A stretch of DNA of 64,000 nt from positions 27,404,001 to 27,468,000 of the forward strand of contig OY740800.1 of assembly GCA_963514005.1 (NCBI GenBank). The letters are read 5' to 3'. The translations under genes were made by a program, and so were the position numbers. Source of the stretch: Raja brachyura (lineage: Eukaryota). The notes under the pieces were generated by a model that was given only the letters and a program-made list of their open reading frames with translations, was not told the DNA's origin and did not search any database. This document shows, piece after piece, positions 2,760 through 44,003 of this stretch (positions within the stretch are counted from its first letter, which is position 1; the number at the start of each line of letters is the position of its first letter).

Positions 2760-3290
2760 TGATGGGGATGGGGATGGGGGGGGGAAGCATAAATAGACGG
2801 GGTGGGGCAAAGCCTGGCAAGAGATAGGTGGATACAGGTGGGGGGGAAGGAGTTGCTTGGCAGATGGGTGGAGCAAATGACAATAGACAATAGGTGCAGG
2901 AGTAGGCCATTCGGCCCTTCGAGCCAGCACCACCATTCAATGTGATCATGGCTGATCATCCACAATCAGTACCCCGCTCCTGCCTTCTCCCCATATCCCC
3001 TGACTCTGCTATTTTTAAGAGCCCTTTCTAGCTCTCTCTTGAAAGCATCCAGAGAACCTGCTTCCACCGCCCTCTGCGGCAGAGAATTCCACAGCCTCAC
3101 TCACCACAAAGGCTGGAGGTGAAGGTGGCAAAAGGATGTCATATATGGAGAGAAGAGGAGGGAAATGTAAAGCCAGAGGGTGGGATGTGGGTGGAAAGGG
3201 TCAGGAGGAAGGGGAAGAGGGGTGATAAAAGGGAAAGAGGGGCTTGGGGGTGTGAGGGGGGGGGGGGGTGGGAGACATAGTGGGTGTTCG
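2760..3290 (-). mobile_element. Penelope 3' remnant interrupted by a young HER1-like 3' end (about 2878-3100)
   Basis: Flanks match the 14100-14340 repeat. The insert starts with the GACAATA tail repeat and matches 20612-20830 and 24170-24380. Confidence 0.7.
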
Positions 3291-3725
3291 ATCTCTTATT
3301 CTTCTAAACTCTAATTAATAAGGAATTTACTCGATCTCTCCTCATATGCAAACCTTTGCTACTCATTATGTAAGAAGACACATACACCTGCCAGATAGAA
3401 ATCATATGGTTCAGTAAGAATAAGGGGCTGAAAGAACTAACTAGCCAACATTGGTCCTCTGTATAACGAGGAAATACCGGCAAGTGAGCCTAATATAAGA
3501 GGTGGAGAAATCATCGGAGAAGATTGTTCGCGATAGGATTGACTCACATCTGGAAAAAACCATGGATTGATTAGGGACAGACAGACAGCATGGTTTTGTG
3601 CAGGGGAGGTCATGGCTTACAAATTTGATGATTTTTGTGGAGGTGACAAAGATGATTGATGAGGTTAGGGCAATGGATGCTGTCTATCTACATGGGCATC
3701 AGTAAAGCTTTCAGAAAGATCTCTC

Positions 3726-4394
3726 CAGTGAAGAAAGCCAATGGTATGTTAGCTTTCATAGCAAAAGGATTTGAGTATAGGAGCAGGGAGGTTCTACTTC
3801 AGTTGTATAGGGTCTTGGTGAGGCCACACCTGGAGTATTGCGTACAGTTCTGGTCTCCAAATCTGAGGAAGGACATTATTGCCATAGAGGGAGTGCAGCG
3901 AAGGTTCACCAGACTGATTCCTGGGATGTCAGGACTGTCTTATGAACAAAGACTGCATAGACTCGGTTTATACTCTCTAGAATTTAGGAGATTGAGAGGG
4001 GATCTTATAGAAACTTACAAGATTCTTAAGGGGTTGGACAGGCTAGATGCAGGAAGATTGTTCCCGATGTTGGGGACGTCCAGGACAAGGGGTCACAGCT
4101 TAAGGATAAGGGGGAAATCCTTTAGGTCCGAGATGAGAAGGAATTTTTTCACACAGAGAGTGGTGGGTCTCTGGAACTCTCTGCCACAGAGGGTAGTTGA
4201 GGCCAGTTCATTGGATATATTTAAGAGGGAGTTAGATGTGGCCCTTGTGGCTAAGGGGATCAGAGGGTATGGAGAGAAGGTAGGTACGGGATACTGAGTT
4301 GGATGATCAGCCATGATCATATTGAATGGCGGTGCAGGCTCGAAGGGCCGAATGGCCTATTCCTGCACCTAATTTCTATGTTTCTATGTTTCTC
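3726..4394 (+). mobile_element. Young 5'-truncated CR1/HER1-like LINE
   Basis: Uninterrupted frame VKKANGML...RPHLEYCVQFWSP...RGHSLRI...FFTQRVV..WNSLP...GTGY* (stop at 4297), then 3' UTR and a (TTTCTATG)n tail. Confidence 0.92.
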
Positions 4395-26765: not shown

Positions 26766-27006
26766 CCTCTCCACAGAAGAAAATGCCTGGATTTGTTCTA
26801 AATAAATCCCCTCCTTACTTGCACAAATGCAGCAAGAGACCCTTCCACCCATTGTTCCATGCTGCTCTCAAGCAGAACAATACCACCACAGTGTCATTCC
26901 CCCTCTCCTTATACCCCCGCAACTTATTCTCTCTGCCTCATCAACTCCTCTTTGGTTCTTTACACCACTAACCTACCATAAATATTGGTGCACTCACACT
27001 CTTGGT

Positions 27007-27060
27007 GGGGTGGAAGATTGCAACCTTCACGTGGTCCGCCCTGTTTCGTCTAATGCAATC
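27007..27060 (+). ncRNA. Minimal HDV-like self-cleaving ribozyme (predicted)
   Basis: P1 GGGGUGG/CCGCCCU with G1-U wobble; P2 GAUUGCA/UGCAAUC; P3 ACC/GGU; L3 UUCACGU (fits UYCHCGY); G27043 for P1.1; J4/2 CUAA with putative catalytic C27050; P4 replaced by a short loop. Confidence 0.8.
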
Positions 27061-27140
27061 AACGCGACGTGCACAGACAGAAGGTCAAATAGAACAAGTT
27101 GTCCTGCAACATTAGGCTGTGCACGCCACACGAAAGAAGA
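27007..27140 (+). mobile_element. 134-bp non-autonomous retroposon (SINE-like) with 5' HDV-like ribozyme and GAA tail
   Basis: Perfect 11-bp TSD ACACTCTTGGT (26996-27006, 27141-27151). Ends CACACGAAAGAAGA. No tRNA A/B boxes and no ORF. Confidence 0.85.
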
Positions 27141-27414
27141 ACACTCTTGGTTTCTGCTCTAACAGTTACTTTAAAGATTTGCTTCTCTTGTTTCTCCCCA
27201 TGCTTCATGCCTCACTCAGCCTTTTAGTTACTTCCCCATATTAAATTTAACCTACTGCGTCTGCCCTTTTCATCAATTTGTTTTTGTCCTCCTGAATCCT
27301 GTCACTACCTGCTGTACAGTGCTGTGTCAGACCTACATCCAGGACACTAATTGGACACAAAATAAACCTTATTTCACATTTACTCCCTTCTAGTCTGTTT
27401 CTAAAGAAACAGTC

Positions 27415-38881: not shown

Positions 38882-40320
38882 TTAGGGAAATTGATCCACC
38901 AACAGTCATAAAACACAAAATACCTGAAACATGAAATTAAGGTGACGAGTGGGAGGATTGGGGATGTGCAAAGATTTGGTGGGGGGGGGGGGGGGGTCAG
39001 TCTACCCCATGGCAGAAGTGGAAGGAGTTGTACAATTTGATGTACAGGGAAGAAGGATCTCCTGTGGCGTTCTGTCCTGCATCTTGGTGGAACCAGTCTG
39101 TTGCTGAAGGTTGACCACTGTGTCATGGAGGGGGTGAGCTGTATTGTCCAGCATGCTCTGCCGTTTGAGGAGCATCCTCCCCTCCAAGACCATTTCCCAT
39201 GAATCCAACTCCACCCTCAGGATGGAGCCAGCCTGCCTGAAGTGTTTGTTAATCCCATTGCCATCCGCCGCCTTCGCCCTGCTGCCCCAGCACACGACAG
39301 CAAAGAAGACGGCACTGGCTACCACCGATTGGTAGAACATCTGCAGCATCTTACTGAAGATGTTGAAGGAGCGGAGCCTCCTCAAAATGTATAGCTGGTT
39401 CAGTCATTTCTTGCACAGAGCCTCAGCGTTCCTGGACCAGTCCAGTTTACGGTCGAGGTATACTCCAAGGTACTTGTACTCCCTGGTAAAGTGTACATTC
39501 ACACCATTGATGGGGACTTGGGACAGGGGTGTTCCTCTCCTCCTAAAGTCTACCACTATCTCCTTAGTCTTGTCGGTGTTGAGCTGCAGCTGATTCAGCC
39601 CACACCACTCAACAAAGTCGTTGACTGCACCTCTGTATTCAGCTTCCCTCCCCTCACTGATGCAGCCCACAATTGCAGTCATCTGAAAACTTCTTCAGCT
39701 GGCAGGAGACCGAGATATATCTGAAGTCCGTGGTGTAGATGGTGAACAGGAAGGGAGAGAGGACCGTCCCCTGTGGGGCCCATGTGTTGCTCACCACCAT
39801 GTCCAAGACACAGTTCTGTAGCCTGACATATTGTGGGTGCCTAGTCAGGTAGGTGGTGATCCAGGACACCAATGGAGCATCCACCCGCATCTTCATCAGT
39901 TTTCTTCATCTGATGCAGGCCTGATGGTGTGAAACGCACTAGAGAAGTCAAAAAACATGTCTCTCACAATGCTTCATGGCTTATCCAGGTGAGCATAGGA
40001 ACGATGGAAAAGATGGATGATGGCGTCCTCATCCCCCATCTTTATTTATAAGCAAAGGGGGTCCAGGTATCGTTTACCCAGGGGTGCACGTGAGTGAGTA
40101 CCAGTGTCTCCAAGGACTTCATGATGTGTGAAGTCAGCGCCATCGGTCTGTAGTCATTGGAGGAGCTGGGGCACATCCTATTTAGTACAGGAACCAGGCA
40201 GGTGGTCTTCCACATCACAGGGACTCCAAGCTCAGGCTTAGGTTGAAGATATGTTGGAATAGTCCGCACAACTGGCTGGCACACGCCTTGAGTACCCTAG
40301 GGCAGATTTCATCGGGACCA
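38882..40320 (-). mobile_element. Rex1/Babar-like LINE, RT to 3' end, frameshifted
   Basis: WKTTCLVPV..NDYRPMALTSHIMK; APQGTVLSPFLFTIYTTD..KFSDD; LQLNTDKTKEIVVDFRR..YKYLGV; RRLRSFNI..MFYQSVVAS. A fragment of the same family is at 12310-12480. Confidence 0.88.
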
Positions 40321-40760: not shown

Positions 40761-41614
40761 CAACGAAAATATTGCTTGCAGCAGCTTAAATGGCCCGTAA
40801 TTGTAAAGCAGACAGATGAAAAATATAATTATCATAAAGTTCAATAAATTAATAACCACATAACACTAGATCACTAGGTAGTATCAAATGATGGGACAAA
40901 TGATCATTCAAGAAGATTTCAGGTGGCCCAGAAAGATACCTCCGGCAGGTCTGGACCCAGAGGAATCCCCCCCTCTGCAATATGCCTTTGATAATGGGCA
41001 GTGTTGTCACCCCTAGTCTCTCCCCTATGGTTAGTTGCAGCTGTCTCCAGCCAATACCCCTTTCTCCTGCTGTGGGGGAGAAGGGTTAAAAGGGACGAGT
41101 TGGCTGTAGGAACTTCAACCTGAAATGACCACCACAGATGCTACCTCGCCTTTAGTTTTTTTTCAATGACACTACAGAATTGGGGCACAAAACATTCACA
41201 CACTCTAATTCCCCAACCTCTTTACAGGGTCTATCCCATGTCGCTGTTATGATACGATAAAACTTTATTTATCTCAGGAGGGAAATTGGTCTGCCAACAG
41301 TCCTAAAACACAAGAGAGGAAAGAGAAACAGAATGAAATTGAAAGTGGCAGAAAAAGTAAGCAATGAAGACTAACCATAATGAAGACATCCCAGGGTCAA
41401 ATAAAGTCATTTGAAACTCTGTGTGACTATCTTCCCACGTTCTAATTATTGCCAATTACAGTCTCCTGTGAATCAGAGACAATGTTATGGTGAAATGGTG
41501 ACATCACCACAGTCACTCACAATCTCCAAAGCACTTTCAAGAGTATTTTTATTTTTGATTTGAATTCATCCTGTTTAATTGACACTGAACAAACTATCAG
41601 GGAAGGTAAGGCTG

Positions 41615-43602
41615 CTTCTTCTTGCAAATGAAACATAAACCAAAGGAATTGTTAGATCTCAAGCCGGGTGTTGAGCAGCCAGTTTGTTGTCTCTGCGTCA
41701 ATGTCTGCCAGGCCCTGAGCTCCATTTCGTGGGTGGTAGAGCGGACACACAGAGATGACATGGTTGGCGGTCTGTTGTTCTGCTCCGCATTCACAGGCTG
41801 GGCTCTGGCGGAGTCCCCATCTCCACATGCTGGCATTGAAACGCCCAACTCCAGTACCAAGTCTGTTGAGCTTCACCCATGCTCCTCTGGGGAGTTTAGA
41901 CCCTGGACAGCTTTTATCTGGTGAAGAGATGTAGCTGTGTAATGGAAATGGGTTAGCCTTCCACTCCTGTGACCACTTGGTGGCTATCCAGTGTGCCTTT
42001 GTCTCAGTTGGCTGGATGGATGCTAGGAATTGTTTTCCAAAGGAGCAAAGGGGTGACCGGACTCTGCTCTCGGCTGATAGCCTGATGGAGGAGGTGATCT
42101 GGTCCATGGCACGGCGAGATAGTGCCAGGGTTGCTGCTTGCCTTCGGATCCCTGTTGGCAGACTGCCTGCAAGTATAGGGAGCTGCTCGACTGGAGTATG
42201 TTGATAGCACCCAGTGATGGTTCACAACGTGCTGTTCAGGCTCATGTCTACCAGGCTAGTATGCCTACTTCTACTCCATACTGGTGTGCAGTACTCAGTT
42301 GGGGCATACACAAGAGCTAAGGCAGAGGTGCGAAGAGTTGATGGACTAGCTCCCCAATTTGTTCCTGCCAGGCGTTGGATGAGGCCGCTACGTGCCATGA
42401 CCTTGTCGCGGAGACCAGCCAGGTGTTGACGAAATGTAAGCGACCTGTCCATCTTTACGCCGCGATAAGTGGGTGTTTGTTGGAAGTCCAAGCGCCTGTT
42501 GTTAACGAAGACAGCCAGCTCTCGCTTAGCTTCCTTGGTGTTTAGATGGAATGTTGTTGACACTGTTTTGCCTTCGCTTAGCTTTAAGGGGCTGTCCCAC
42601 TTGGGCGACCTAATCTGCGAGTTAAGAAGAGTGTTTTCGACCTTCAAGCTTGAGGGCACTCACCTGGAAAGCCTCGAGCTGGATCGACCGTCCGTGTTGA
42701 AACCGCGAGCTGGATCGATCGACCGCACACACACACACAAACACATCGCAAACGCGGGGCCCAGAGAAAGCGGAGAAGCGCTGTCTGCACGATGAATAGG
42801 AAGGTAAACGGAGAAAAGGGGTAGAGAAGCGGTGAGAAGGGTCTAGAAGGGGAGAGAAAGAGAGAAGGGGATAGAAAGGGAGAGAAGGGGGGAGAAGGGG
42901 AGAGGAGGGGTGAGAAGGGGAAAGAAGGGGGGAGAGAAAGGGGGCAGAAGGGGAGAGAAGGGGGGGAAGAAGGGGGGGGGAGCCGGTCGGTTTTCCTTGG
43001 TCCTGAAAATTCCAAAGAGCCAGTCAAAATGCCCGGTCAGCGAAGGAGATTGCCTATGGCTGCCCTAGACTGCCTGTAACTAAATAGTGACCCCGCTCCA
43101 CTGCACTACGAGTCAAAAAGAACCATGCCGACCAAATTTTTCAAAATGCTGAAAATGTTTCCGCAACCTAGCTGAGGCCACGAGTATTCAGGAACTTCCC
43201 TCGAACATGGTGGAGAGTTCCAGCGACCTCATAGGACCTCCTAGGACCATGTGTGGACCATGCGGTGAGTTTGAATGTCGAAGACAATCTTCTAAACTCA
43301 CAGATTAGGTCGCCCAAGTGGGACAGCCCCTTTAGACGCCACTGTCGTAGGTATACTGCCAAAGTCCACTTGCTTTGACTCAGGGAGCTTTTGATTGTCT
43401 TCCACTCTTTGTGTCTCATCAGGATGGCTAGATCATCAGCATACCAATAGTTTCCAGCGATGGTCTCTGGGAGGTCATGGATGTACACGTTGAAAAGCAG
43501 CGGAGCCAAGACGGATCCCTGTGGGACGCCATTCTTCAGTCTACGTAGCCCACTCTGCTATCCATCACTGGTCTTAACCACAAAGCTGCGGTTTGATATC
43601 AC
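41615..43602 (-). mobile_element. 5'-truncated Vingi/Ingi-like (I-group) LINE: RT C-terminal half and CCHC zinc finger, split by a MITE
   Basis: NGVPQGSVLAPLLFNVYIHDLP..YADD; RLAGTNWGASPSTLRTSALALVY..EYCTPVW; LNRLGTGVGRF..CECGAEQQTANHVISVC; short 3' UTR and GAAGAAG tail. No RNase H seen. Clade assignment is from recalled motifs. Confidence 0.75.
42587..43331. mobile_element. Non-autonomous PIF/Harbinger-type element with internal purine-rich tract
   Basis: TIRs AGGGGCTGTCCCACTTGGGCGACCTAATCTG / CAGATTAGGTCGCCCAAGTGGGACAGCCCCT. TTA TSD at 42584-42586 and 43332-43334. G/A tract at 42800-42981. Confidence 0.9.
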
Positions 43603-44003
43603 TCTCTGCAGCTTTTGATATAAGGCTATGAATTAGTCAGGCATTGAATTACGCTGATAAACCATTCTGAGTATTAATATCACGCGGCTCAATCCCCACC
43701 AAAGCCTCATGGTTAATTCACGTCTGTAGACTCCAGAATATTTCCGCTGTCACACAGAGTATTACCGATCAGTTTCTGTTCAGAGCTATCCAGGAACATG
43801 GTCAAATCAAGTCAAGTGGAGTTTATAGTCATATAACAAGCATGGTGAGGTACAGGCATAAGTTTGGGCAGTAGCACCACAGGCACATAGACTCAGACAA
43901 CAAACAAAAATAAATTATTCATAAACACTGCCGTGAAAAGAAAGACTGTGCAACACAAAAACAAAATATTGGAGTAAAAGTACACAATTAAATAACAATT
44001 AGA

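What the first reader, a model, noticed from the sequence alone, without database searches (positions are those of the whole stretch)
41615..43602. Vingi/Ingi-like LINE as candidate autonomous partner of the ribozyme-headed SINE
Seen: an RT plus CCHC zinc-finger LINE unlike the CR1 and Rex elements around it. It ends CATTTGCAAGAAGAAG, and the 27007 element ends CACACGAAAGAAGA (10 of 14 positions match, same GAA tail). Known: Ingi-clade elements carry 5' HDV-like ribozymes and spawn short non-autonomous derivatives, and Vingi has a patchy distribution attributed to horizontal transfer. Inference: the 134-bp element derives from, or is mobilised by, this LINE family or a relative, giving a two-component ribozyme retro-system. 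This LINE copy is 5'-truncated, so its own 5' end cannot be inspected here.
Basis: partly seen in the sequence, partly recalled or inferred. Interest (0 to 1): 0.75.

Follow-up and report, generated by a model that had tools for sequence, protein, structure and literature searches.

The report
Ribozyme-headed mini-retroelement has another parent
The broken jumping gene in this window is not the parent of the nearby tiny self-cutting-RNA repeat; the parent is a distant cousin elsewhere in the genome, and all four cousin families start with a self-cutting RNA fold and have ends that may pair with each other.

Summary
The LINE at 41615-43601 (minus strand) is real: a 5'-truncated copy of a Vingi-type family ('A'), split by an unreported 745-bp DNA transposon. 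Its full-length relatives (3.1 kb, APE-RT-CCHC, no RNase H) begin with their own HDV-like ribozyme. The parent is another family, 'D' (about 40% RT identity to A): one 3.1-kb copy carries both termini of the short element, and the c subfamily equals D's first 85 and last 42 nt. So the short element (over 12,500 copies) is an internal-deletion derivative of the RIME/NARTc/SIDE kind, headed by a 54-nt HDV-like fold with almost no P4. All four Vingi-type families found start with an HDV fold at nucleotide 1, with compensatory helix changes. Each also shows modest complementarity between the stretch after the ribozyme and its own 3' UTR, predicted in advance for one family. Cleavage and pairing are untested. 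Known kind; the possible end pairing is the new lead.

The parts
41615..42586 (-). Family-A LINE, 3' part: RT thumb region, C-terminal domain, 3' UTR and GAA tail (frames broken)
   Evidence: 86-89% to six long genomic copies; ORFs
41745..41795 (-). CCHC zinc finger (Cx1Cx7Hx4C) near the end of the ORF
   Evidence: read from the 189-aa ORF 41652-42221; C, C, H, C invariant in 23 homologues
42587..43331 (.). 745-bp non-autonomous DNA transposon inserted into the LINE; 65-nt TIRs, TTA duplicated (42584-42586, 43332-43334); PIF/Harbinger-like by its target site (recalled)
43332..43601 (-). Family-A LINE, 5'-most surviving part, within the RT domain; 5' truncation point about 43601
   Evidence: RVT_1 E 2.4e-9; BLAST ends at 43601 in 5 of 6 long copies
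41607..41613 (+). possible 7-bp target-site duplication of the LINE (second copy 43621-43627); weak, about 19 unaligned bases lie between it and the LINE
27007..27140 (+). 134-bp non-autonomous element, subfamily a; internal-deletion derivative of LINE family D (not of the window LINE)
27007..27060 (+). 54-nt HDV-like ribozyme fold: P1 1-7/30-36 (G1-U wobble), P2 10-16/48-54, P3 17-19/27-29, one-pair P1.1 (22/37), 7-nt link in place of P4, presumed catalytic C at 44 (27050)
   Evidence: only descriptor match on both strands of the 64-kb window; Rfam HDV model matches end to end but at 14.9 bits against a cut-off of 44
27068..27125 (+). 8-bp stem between 27068-27075 (from the LINE 5' UTR) and 27118-27125 (from the LINE 3' UTR): the possible end-pairing
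   Evidence: folds in subfamilies a, b, c and in the window copy; 99% of cells paired in 30 copies, no two-sided change
27104..27140 (+). 3' part derived from the last codons, 3' UTR and GAA tail of family D
   Evidence: 34 of 38 identical to a family-D end, 0 of 1000 shuffles
26996..27006 (+). 11-bp target-site duplication of the short element (second copy 27141-27151)

Best explanation
The genome holds at least four deeply split Vingi-type LINE families (A-D). The window LINE is a dead, truncated copy of A. The 134-bp element arose from family D by an internal deletion that kept the 5' ribozyme with the adjoining 5' UTR and the last 36-42 nt with the GAA tail (shown). It then spread on its own, as subfamilies c, b and a, to more than 12,500 copies (shown). 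Mechanism (inferred from R2, L1Tc/NARTc): a copy is read as part of a longer host or self-started transcript; the HDV-like fold cuts just before G1 and gives a fixed 5' end; a Vingi protein, most simply D's, binds the 3' end and copies the RNA into a nicked site by target-primed reverse transcription, leaving a 10-13-bp duplication. The short RNA is mostly copied whole, so most new copies keep the ribozyme, while most LINE copies lose theirs.
For: L313 is one 3.1-kb copy with ORF homology from APE to finger and both termini of the short element (92% over 65 nt, 79% over 38 nt). 29 of 30 family-D 3' loci carry the short element's 3' end. 15 of 20 fetched family-D 5' ends carry the ribozyme core before LINE-specific UTR (read by eye). 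Subfamily c equals D's first 85 and last 42 nt without a difference at majority level. Public contigs of two further coded organisms cover all 30 bins of L313, and three of four runs show joints that skip about 2,965-3,000 nt between its two ends. Pattern-sampled copies: short element 9.6-10.7% pairwise, D 5' ends 9.3%, A 5' ends 15%. 22 of 30 copies sampled by their 3' end start within the first 5 nt. The three changes fixed in the ribozyme of subfamilies a and b all fall at tolerated places (33% of single changes would).
Against: Self-cleavage is not shown; no raw reads were served. Rfam gathering score is not reached. Only 8 of 30 sampled copies keep every pair and core base. Which protein moved subfamilies a and b is inferred: their middle is rearranged, they share a P1 change not seen in sampled D 5' ends, and the last 15 nt of subfamily a match family B (14 of 15) as well as D. 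Best-hit 3' samples give the same spread for A, B and D (8.0-8.3%), so age does not cleanly exclude A or B as helpers. TSD lengths do not separate the families.
Confidence: 0.88

Rival explanations
1. The short element derives from, or was chiefly moved by, the window's family A.
For: Same GAA tail and similar TSD length; shared ribozyme core, 21 of 26 letters, above 1000 of 1000 shuffles; subfamily b ends in letters close to A's last dozen.
Against: No 3' similarity without the tail (984 of 1000 shuffles as good); the shared core is the constrained P3/L3 of the fold; D matches both ends far better; A makes its own deletion derivatives (L073, L079); A 5' ends look older.
Confidence: 0.04
2. 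Born from D, but subfamily a later switched to family B as its helper, its terminal letters drifting toward B's.
For: Window copy and a family-B end agree in 14 of the last 15 letters, 1 of 1000 shuffles; B copies are 89-94% alike over 1.4-2.8 kb, so B was active in a similar period.
Against: Without the tail the B match is reached by 78 of 1000 shuffles; the same terminus stands in an unrelated Vingi-type element (L331); subfamily a keeps 34 of 36 of D's last letters.
Confidence: 0.12
3. The 5' 54 nt are kept for another job (internal promoter as in Pr77, protein binding, 5' protection) and the minimal fold cuts poorly or not at all.
For: P4 is reduced to 7 nt and P1.1 to one pair; low Rfam score; the trypanosome Pr77 is both promoter and ribozyme (PMC4035085, passages seen).
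Against: In all four families the element starts exactly at the first base of P1; helices are kept through two-sided changes across families, including P3 and P1.1; a C-N-A motif stands before P2' in all four.
Confidence: 0.15
4. The 5'/3' complementarity is base composition or chance, with no role.
For: Family A is not significant against shuffles (192 of 2000); in five single decayed copies the post-ribozyme window ranks only 15th to 151st of about 530-610 windows by duplex energy; no two-sided change within the short-element family; three of four cases were seen by eye before testing.
Against: The cognate pair is best in 4 of 4 rows and columns by two measures; shuffles reach it in 49, 15 and 8 of 2000 for B, C, D; 2 of 477 body windows reach the terminal score; family C was predicted beforehand (note; result).
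Confidence: 0.5

Closest known systems
Vingi clade LINEs (Vingi-1_EE, Vingi-1_Acar) and their internal-deletion derivatives
   Same: [quoted passage not shown]
   Different: No named Vingi sequence was on hand for the tree. PMC5786205 lists six clades with 5' ribozymes and Vingi is not among them; here four Vingi-type lineages have one. The two primary papers (PMC3002237, PMC3308841) were not held, so an earlier report cannot be excluded.
RIME/ingi and NARTc/L1Tc of trypanosomes (Pr77 HDV-like ribozyme)
   Same: Short element made of the 5' ribozyme and the 3' end of its LINE, moved in trans (PMC4035085, passages seen).
   Different: L1Tc encodes RNase H; its ribozyme lies in 77 nt, here 54 nt with almost no P4; the host here is an animal with a 2.7-Gb genome and the copy number exceeds 12,500.
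R2 SIDEs (short internally deleted elements)
   Same: Ribozyme plus 3' end, no ORF, moved by the full element's protein (PMC6765202, passages seen; PMC3414825, abstract start only).
   Different: R2 is site-specific in 28S rDNA with an RLE nuclease; this family is APE-type, dispersed, with 10-13-bp TSDs.
Minimal HDV-like ribozymes (microbiome type, Rfam RF02682) and the one-pair P1.1 of CPEB3
   Same: Same order of helices; RF02682 aligns over its whole length.
   Different: Score far below the family cut-off; comparison with CPEB3 and with P4-less ribozymes is recalled, not tested.

Membership tests
Vingi clade (window LINE, family A) | single compact ORF with APE and RT, about 3 kb | tested here: met
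   long copies about 3.1 kb with homology from just after the 5' UTR to the finger; Pfam APE and RT on pieces; nearest database proteins are 989-1039 aa APE-RT. All copies seen have broken frames.
Vingi clade (window LINE, family A) | no RNase H domain | tested here: met
   no RNase H hit in the C-terminal pieces or in P0001, while P0050 has one
Vingi clade (window LINE, family A) | RT groups with named Vingi elements | tested here: inconclusive
   A-D fall in one group of RNase-H-less proteins apart from RNase-H-bearing and CR1-looking rows (SH-aLRT 99 in the 73-row quick tree, 83 in the 28-row tree); no named Vingi, Ingi, Nimb, I or Jockey reference was available
Ingi clade | RNase H domain present | tested here: not met
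Non-autonomous partner of family A | short element shares both termini with family A | tested here: not met
Bipartite non-autonomous LINE (SIDE, RIME/NARTc kind), parent D | 5' end and 3' end both come from one LINE family | tested here: met
Bipartite non-autonomous LINE (SIDE, RIME/NARTc kind), parent D | spreads as its own family, with tail and TSD, no ORF | tested here: met
   12,528 exact hits of a 21-nt pattern, reversed control 0; TSD of 6 or more in 66 of 79 copies, median 11; subfamilies
Bipartite non-autonomous LINE (SIDE, RIME/NARTc kind), parent D | moved in trans by the parent's protein | not testable with these tools
   inferred from shared ends
SINE in the strict sense | head from tRNA, 7SL, 5S or snRNA with a Pol III promoter | tested here: not met
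   the element is LINE-derived from nucleotide 1; no other Rfam match at E up to 10
HDV-like ribozymes | nested double pseudoknot P1, P2, P3, P1.1 with G1 and a C in J4/2 | tested here: met
   descriptor met at nucleotide 1 of families A-D and once in the 64-kb window (descriptor written from my knowledge of the fold)
HDV-like ribozymes | Rfam gathering score of a curated HDV family | tested here: not met
   14.9 of 44 bits, E 3.8
HDV-like ribozymes | self-cleavage 5' of G1 | not testable with these tools
   only contigs were served, no raw reads

The most novel reading that the evidence does not exclude
Vingi-type LINE RNAs close into a loop: after the 5' HDV-like ribozyme cuts, the stretch right behind it pairs with the element's own 3' UTR. 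This two-ended signal differs by family, would explain why Vingi derivatives keep both ends and why the deletion joints lie at the far end of the stem, and would be a design rule for Vingi-based RNA gene writers; the 54-nt fold would be an unusually small HDV-like ribozyme spread in over 12,500 copies in an animal genome.
Probability: 0.4. Interest if true: 0.7.

Novelty: new member of a known kind. Interest (0 to 1): 0.46.

Why it matters
PMC5786205 (section 23 read) notes that only RTE, Ingi, Vingi and R2 make two-ended non-autonomous elements, lists ribozymes for three of them but not Vingi, and calls the cause unknown. Four independent Vingi-type lineages with a 5' HDV fold fill that gap, and the possible 5'/3' pairing gives a testable second cause. 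Vingi-1 is being developed as an all-RNA gene writer whose donor carries both UTRs (PMC13708176, passages seen); a natural 134-nt template that out-copied its parent many times over shows which parts suffice. The case also warns that a shared GAA tail and nearness in the genome do not name a partner.

Tried and rejected
Family A as parent: rejected. Families B and C as parent: B and C 3' ends and B 5' end match no better than shuffles apart from the terminal motif; C's 5' end differs in P1, P2 and P4. A search for 3' termini lacking the upstream five letters gave 26 hits, none with Vingi-type coding sequence running into the terminus. The pattern was mis-registered and became a plain 3'-anchored sample (6,065 hits), used as such. 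The parent came to light through the rare subfamily c (62 hits; 1 of 30 loci was a LINE). L258 and L275 proved truncated inside RT. TSD length does not separate families: found in 4 of 14 A, 2 of 5 B, 3 of 13 D copies, 10-12 bp (crude boundaries). Covariation inside the short-element family is uninformative: no two-sided change, 500 of 500 shuffles as high (one search had one helix misplaced). Duplex energy on single decayed copies does not rank the terminal pairing first. PDB holds only distant L1, R2 and group II RTs. In-vivo cleavage: no raw reads; RNA-labelled contigs run on into flanks and cannot show ends. The careful 73-row tree did not finish; both trees are quick trees. Earlier findings of this scan: three look-ups, nothing.

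Full report
Observation. The window lies in a 2.7-Gb animal genome, G000; its flanking repeats look to me like those of a cartilaginous fish (recalled, not tested). The LINE runs on the minus strand from 43601 to 41615. It has an RT piece, a C-terminal CCHC finger and a GAA tail. The span is not all LINE: 42587-43331 is a 745-bp element with 65-nt inverted ends and a TTA duplication, which leaves about 1.24 kb of LINE. The short element is 27007-27140 with an 11-bp duplication.

The window LINE's family (A). A search with its 3' kilobase gave 1,862 candidates, 40 scored, 85-90% identical. Of ten extended copies, five reach about 3.1 kb. Their 5' ends share a fold-forming stretch; a 24-nt pattern found 51 places, and 19 of the 30 fetched were family-A 5' ends. 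The ORF holds APE and RT and no RNase H, which fits the description of Vingi in PMC13708176 (passages seen). The second is not: it shares only the P3/L3 core (21 of 26 letters) with the short element.

The short element's family. A 21-nt core pattern has 12,528 exact hits, reversed control 0. Copies fall into subfamilies a (window type), b and a rare c. TSDs of 6 or more were found in 66 of 79 copies, median 11. In 30 copies sampled by their 3' end, 22 start within the first five letters and 8 keep every pair and core base. Public runs of seven coded organisms hold 0.73-1.00 of its words; 8 of 23 rows may be the window's own source.

Finding the parent. A search with a distant protein (44 of 124,937 candidates scored) showed families B (17 of 30 loci) and C (2 of 30) beside A (11 of 30); neither has the short element's ends beyond the terminal motif. 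The middle of subfamily c reads like the last codons of a Vingi ORF, so I searched it (62 hits). One of 30 loci, L234, is a truncated LINE whose finger domain runs straight into the short element's 3' end. This family D has 706 candidates for its last 249 coding letters, and 29 of 30 loci carry the shared 3' end (two pairs are duplicates). Walking upstream gave a 5' end, L287; a pattern for the LINE-specific UTR gave 28 places, and 15 of the 20 fetched carry the ribozyme core in front of it (by eye). L313 is a single 3.1-kb copy with both termini and ORF homology over residues 3-998 of a 998-aa relative. At majority level subfamily c equals D's first 85 and last 42 letters; b and a keep 81 and 72 letters of the 5' end, with a few changes, and 36 of the 3' end. 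Laying four public runs on L313 showed cover in all 30 bins for two runs and joints skipping about 2,965-3,000 letters in three.

Relationship of the families. RT identity: A-B 59-61%, A-D 38-41%, A-C 39-40% (decayed copies, stops as X). A tree that holds A and D together is rejected (p-AU 4e-5, 28 rows, quick tree). In the 73-row quick tree A-D lie in one RNase-H-less group apart from RNase-H-bearing and CR1-looking rows. A, B and C are each closer to outside proteins than to one another (A 80% to P0003, B 78% to P0029), which suits separate arrivals but proves nothing without names. Ages are only roughly known: pattern-sampled pairwise distances are 9.6-10.7% for the short element, 9.3% for D 5' ends and 15% for A 5' ends, but best-hit 3' samples give 8.0-8.3% for A, B and D alike (nine copies of one duplicated locus were left out of subfamily c).

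The ribozyme. A descriptor written from my knowledge of the HDV fold matches at nucleotide 1 of all four families and once in the 64-kb window, at 27007-27060. Across families P1 is kept through two-sided changes at four of seven pairs, P2 differs wholly, P3 has one two-sided change, and the P1.1 pair is C-G in A, C, D and T-A in B. Lengths are 90, 85, 95 and 54 nt for A, B, C, D; in D and the short element only seven letters stand where P4 would be. The three changes fixed in subfamilies a and b (positions 8, 32, 45) fall in a linker, as a wobble and beside the presumed catalytic C; a third of single changes would be tolerated, so this is a hint of selection only. Against: Rfam gives 14.9 of 44 bits, there is no covariation inside the young family, and cleavage could not be looked at.

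A lead: pairing of the two ends. By eye, the stretch behind the ribozyme is complementary to the 3' UTR in A, B and D. I wrote down the prediction for C before seeing its 5' end; C then showed both the fold and the complementarity. On majority termini (one copy for C's 3' end) the cognate pair is best in 4 of 4 rows and columns by letter score and by duplex energy; shuffles reach the letter score in 192, 49, 15 and 8 of 2000 for A, B, C, D; 2 of 477 body windows reach it. The combined p of 6e-5 overstates, since three cases were picked by eye. On single decayed copies the cognate mean is still best in each row, but the post-ribozyme window ranks only 15th to 151st along the element. The short element keeps the stem, subfamily b lengthens it to ten pairs, and the deletion joint of subfamily c lies at its far end. 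I put this at 40%.

How it most likely works. Shown: origin by internal deletion from D, independent spread, tail and TSD, fold at nucleotide 1. Inferred from R2 and L1Tc/NARTc (PMC6765202 and PMC4035085, passages seen): release from a longer transcript by self-cleavage, then target-primed reverse transcription by a Vingi protein in trans. D is the simplest helper; B is a possible later helper of subfamily a; A is unlikely.

Against what is known. Two-ended non-autonomous LINEs are described for RTE, Ingi, Vingi and R2; Vingi is absent from that paper's list of ribozyme-bearing clades (PMC5786205, passages and section 23; PMC4494074, PMC5753468, PMC3391268 passages, add no ribozyme report). 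Searches for Vingi with ribozyme (6 papers), Vingi alone (36 listed), HDV-like ribozyme with non-autonomous, with minimal and vertebrate (one preprint's passages read), Ingi-HDV-fish-SINE and end pairing (listings only) showed no report of a Vingi ribozyme or of 5'/3' pairing; one search returned only unrelated papers. The two key primary papers were not held and Repbase is not searchable here, so absence from print is not established.

Verdict. The window LINE is an ordinary dead Vingi-type copy; the short element is a new member of the RIME/NARTc/SIDE kind, derived from family D. The added value lies in four separate Vingi-type ribozymes, a very small one in very many copies, and a testable end-pairing idea. 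Interest 0.46.

Noticed in passing
window 42587-43331: Non-autonomous DNA transposon with 65-nt TIRs, TTA duplication and a 10-nt purine-rich repeat inside; related elements sit in other loci (L230, L071) and similar ends interrupt ribozymes or short elements at TTA/TAA sites (L077, L100, L091, L155, L157).
   Followed up: partly
L079:1480-1600 and L073:1479-1890: Family A makes its own two-ended derivatives: one of about 115 nt (ribozyme plus the last dozen letters, with a 7-bp duplication) and one of about 410 nt; copy numbers unknown.
   Followed up: partly
L282, L285, L289, L290, L294, L295, L301, L308, L309 (family D), L081 (A), L328 (C): Many copies have an inverted 5' part, often joined at the very 5' end of the element, as in twin priming (term recalled).
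   Followed up: partly
short element positions about 90-106, subfamilies a and b: The abundant subfamilies gained a new 7-bp hairpin in the rearranged middle (folds in b); the rare subfamily c, closest to the parent, lacks it.
   Followed up: partly
G000:C1:14.79-14.95 Mb: Ten pairs of short elements in opposite orientation, 1.4-1.6 kb apart, repeat along 160 kb: a block amplified in tandem.
   Followed up: no
L223, L228, L235, L239-L242, L245, L246: One subfamily-c copy carried with its flanks in a duplicated segment, often near contig ends (9 of 30 loci).
   Followed up: no
L329-L332: Partial Vingi-type ORFs (39-43% to the query) in contigs filed as archaeal and bacterial genome bins, probably animal contamination; L331 ends in the same 14 letters as the window's short element.
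   Followed up: partly
L293 (about 300-440) and L069/L043: Subfamily-a copies inserted in the 5' region of a family-D LINE and beside the 5' break of a family-A copy; useful for ordering the bursts.
   Followed up: no
P0003, P0029: Unnamed database proteins are 80% and 78% identical in RT to families A and B, far closer than the families are to each other: a hint of horizontal transfer.
   Followed up: partly
window 3656-4297 and 39374-39776: Pieces of other LINE RTs; the first reads like the end of a CR1-type ORF2 (recalled).
   Followed up: no
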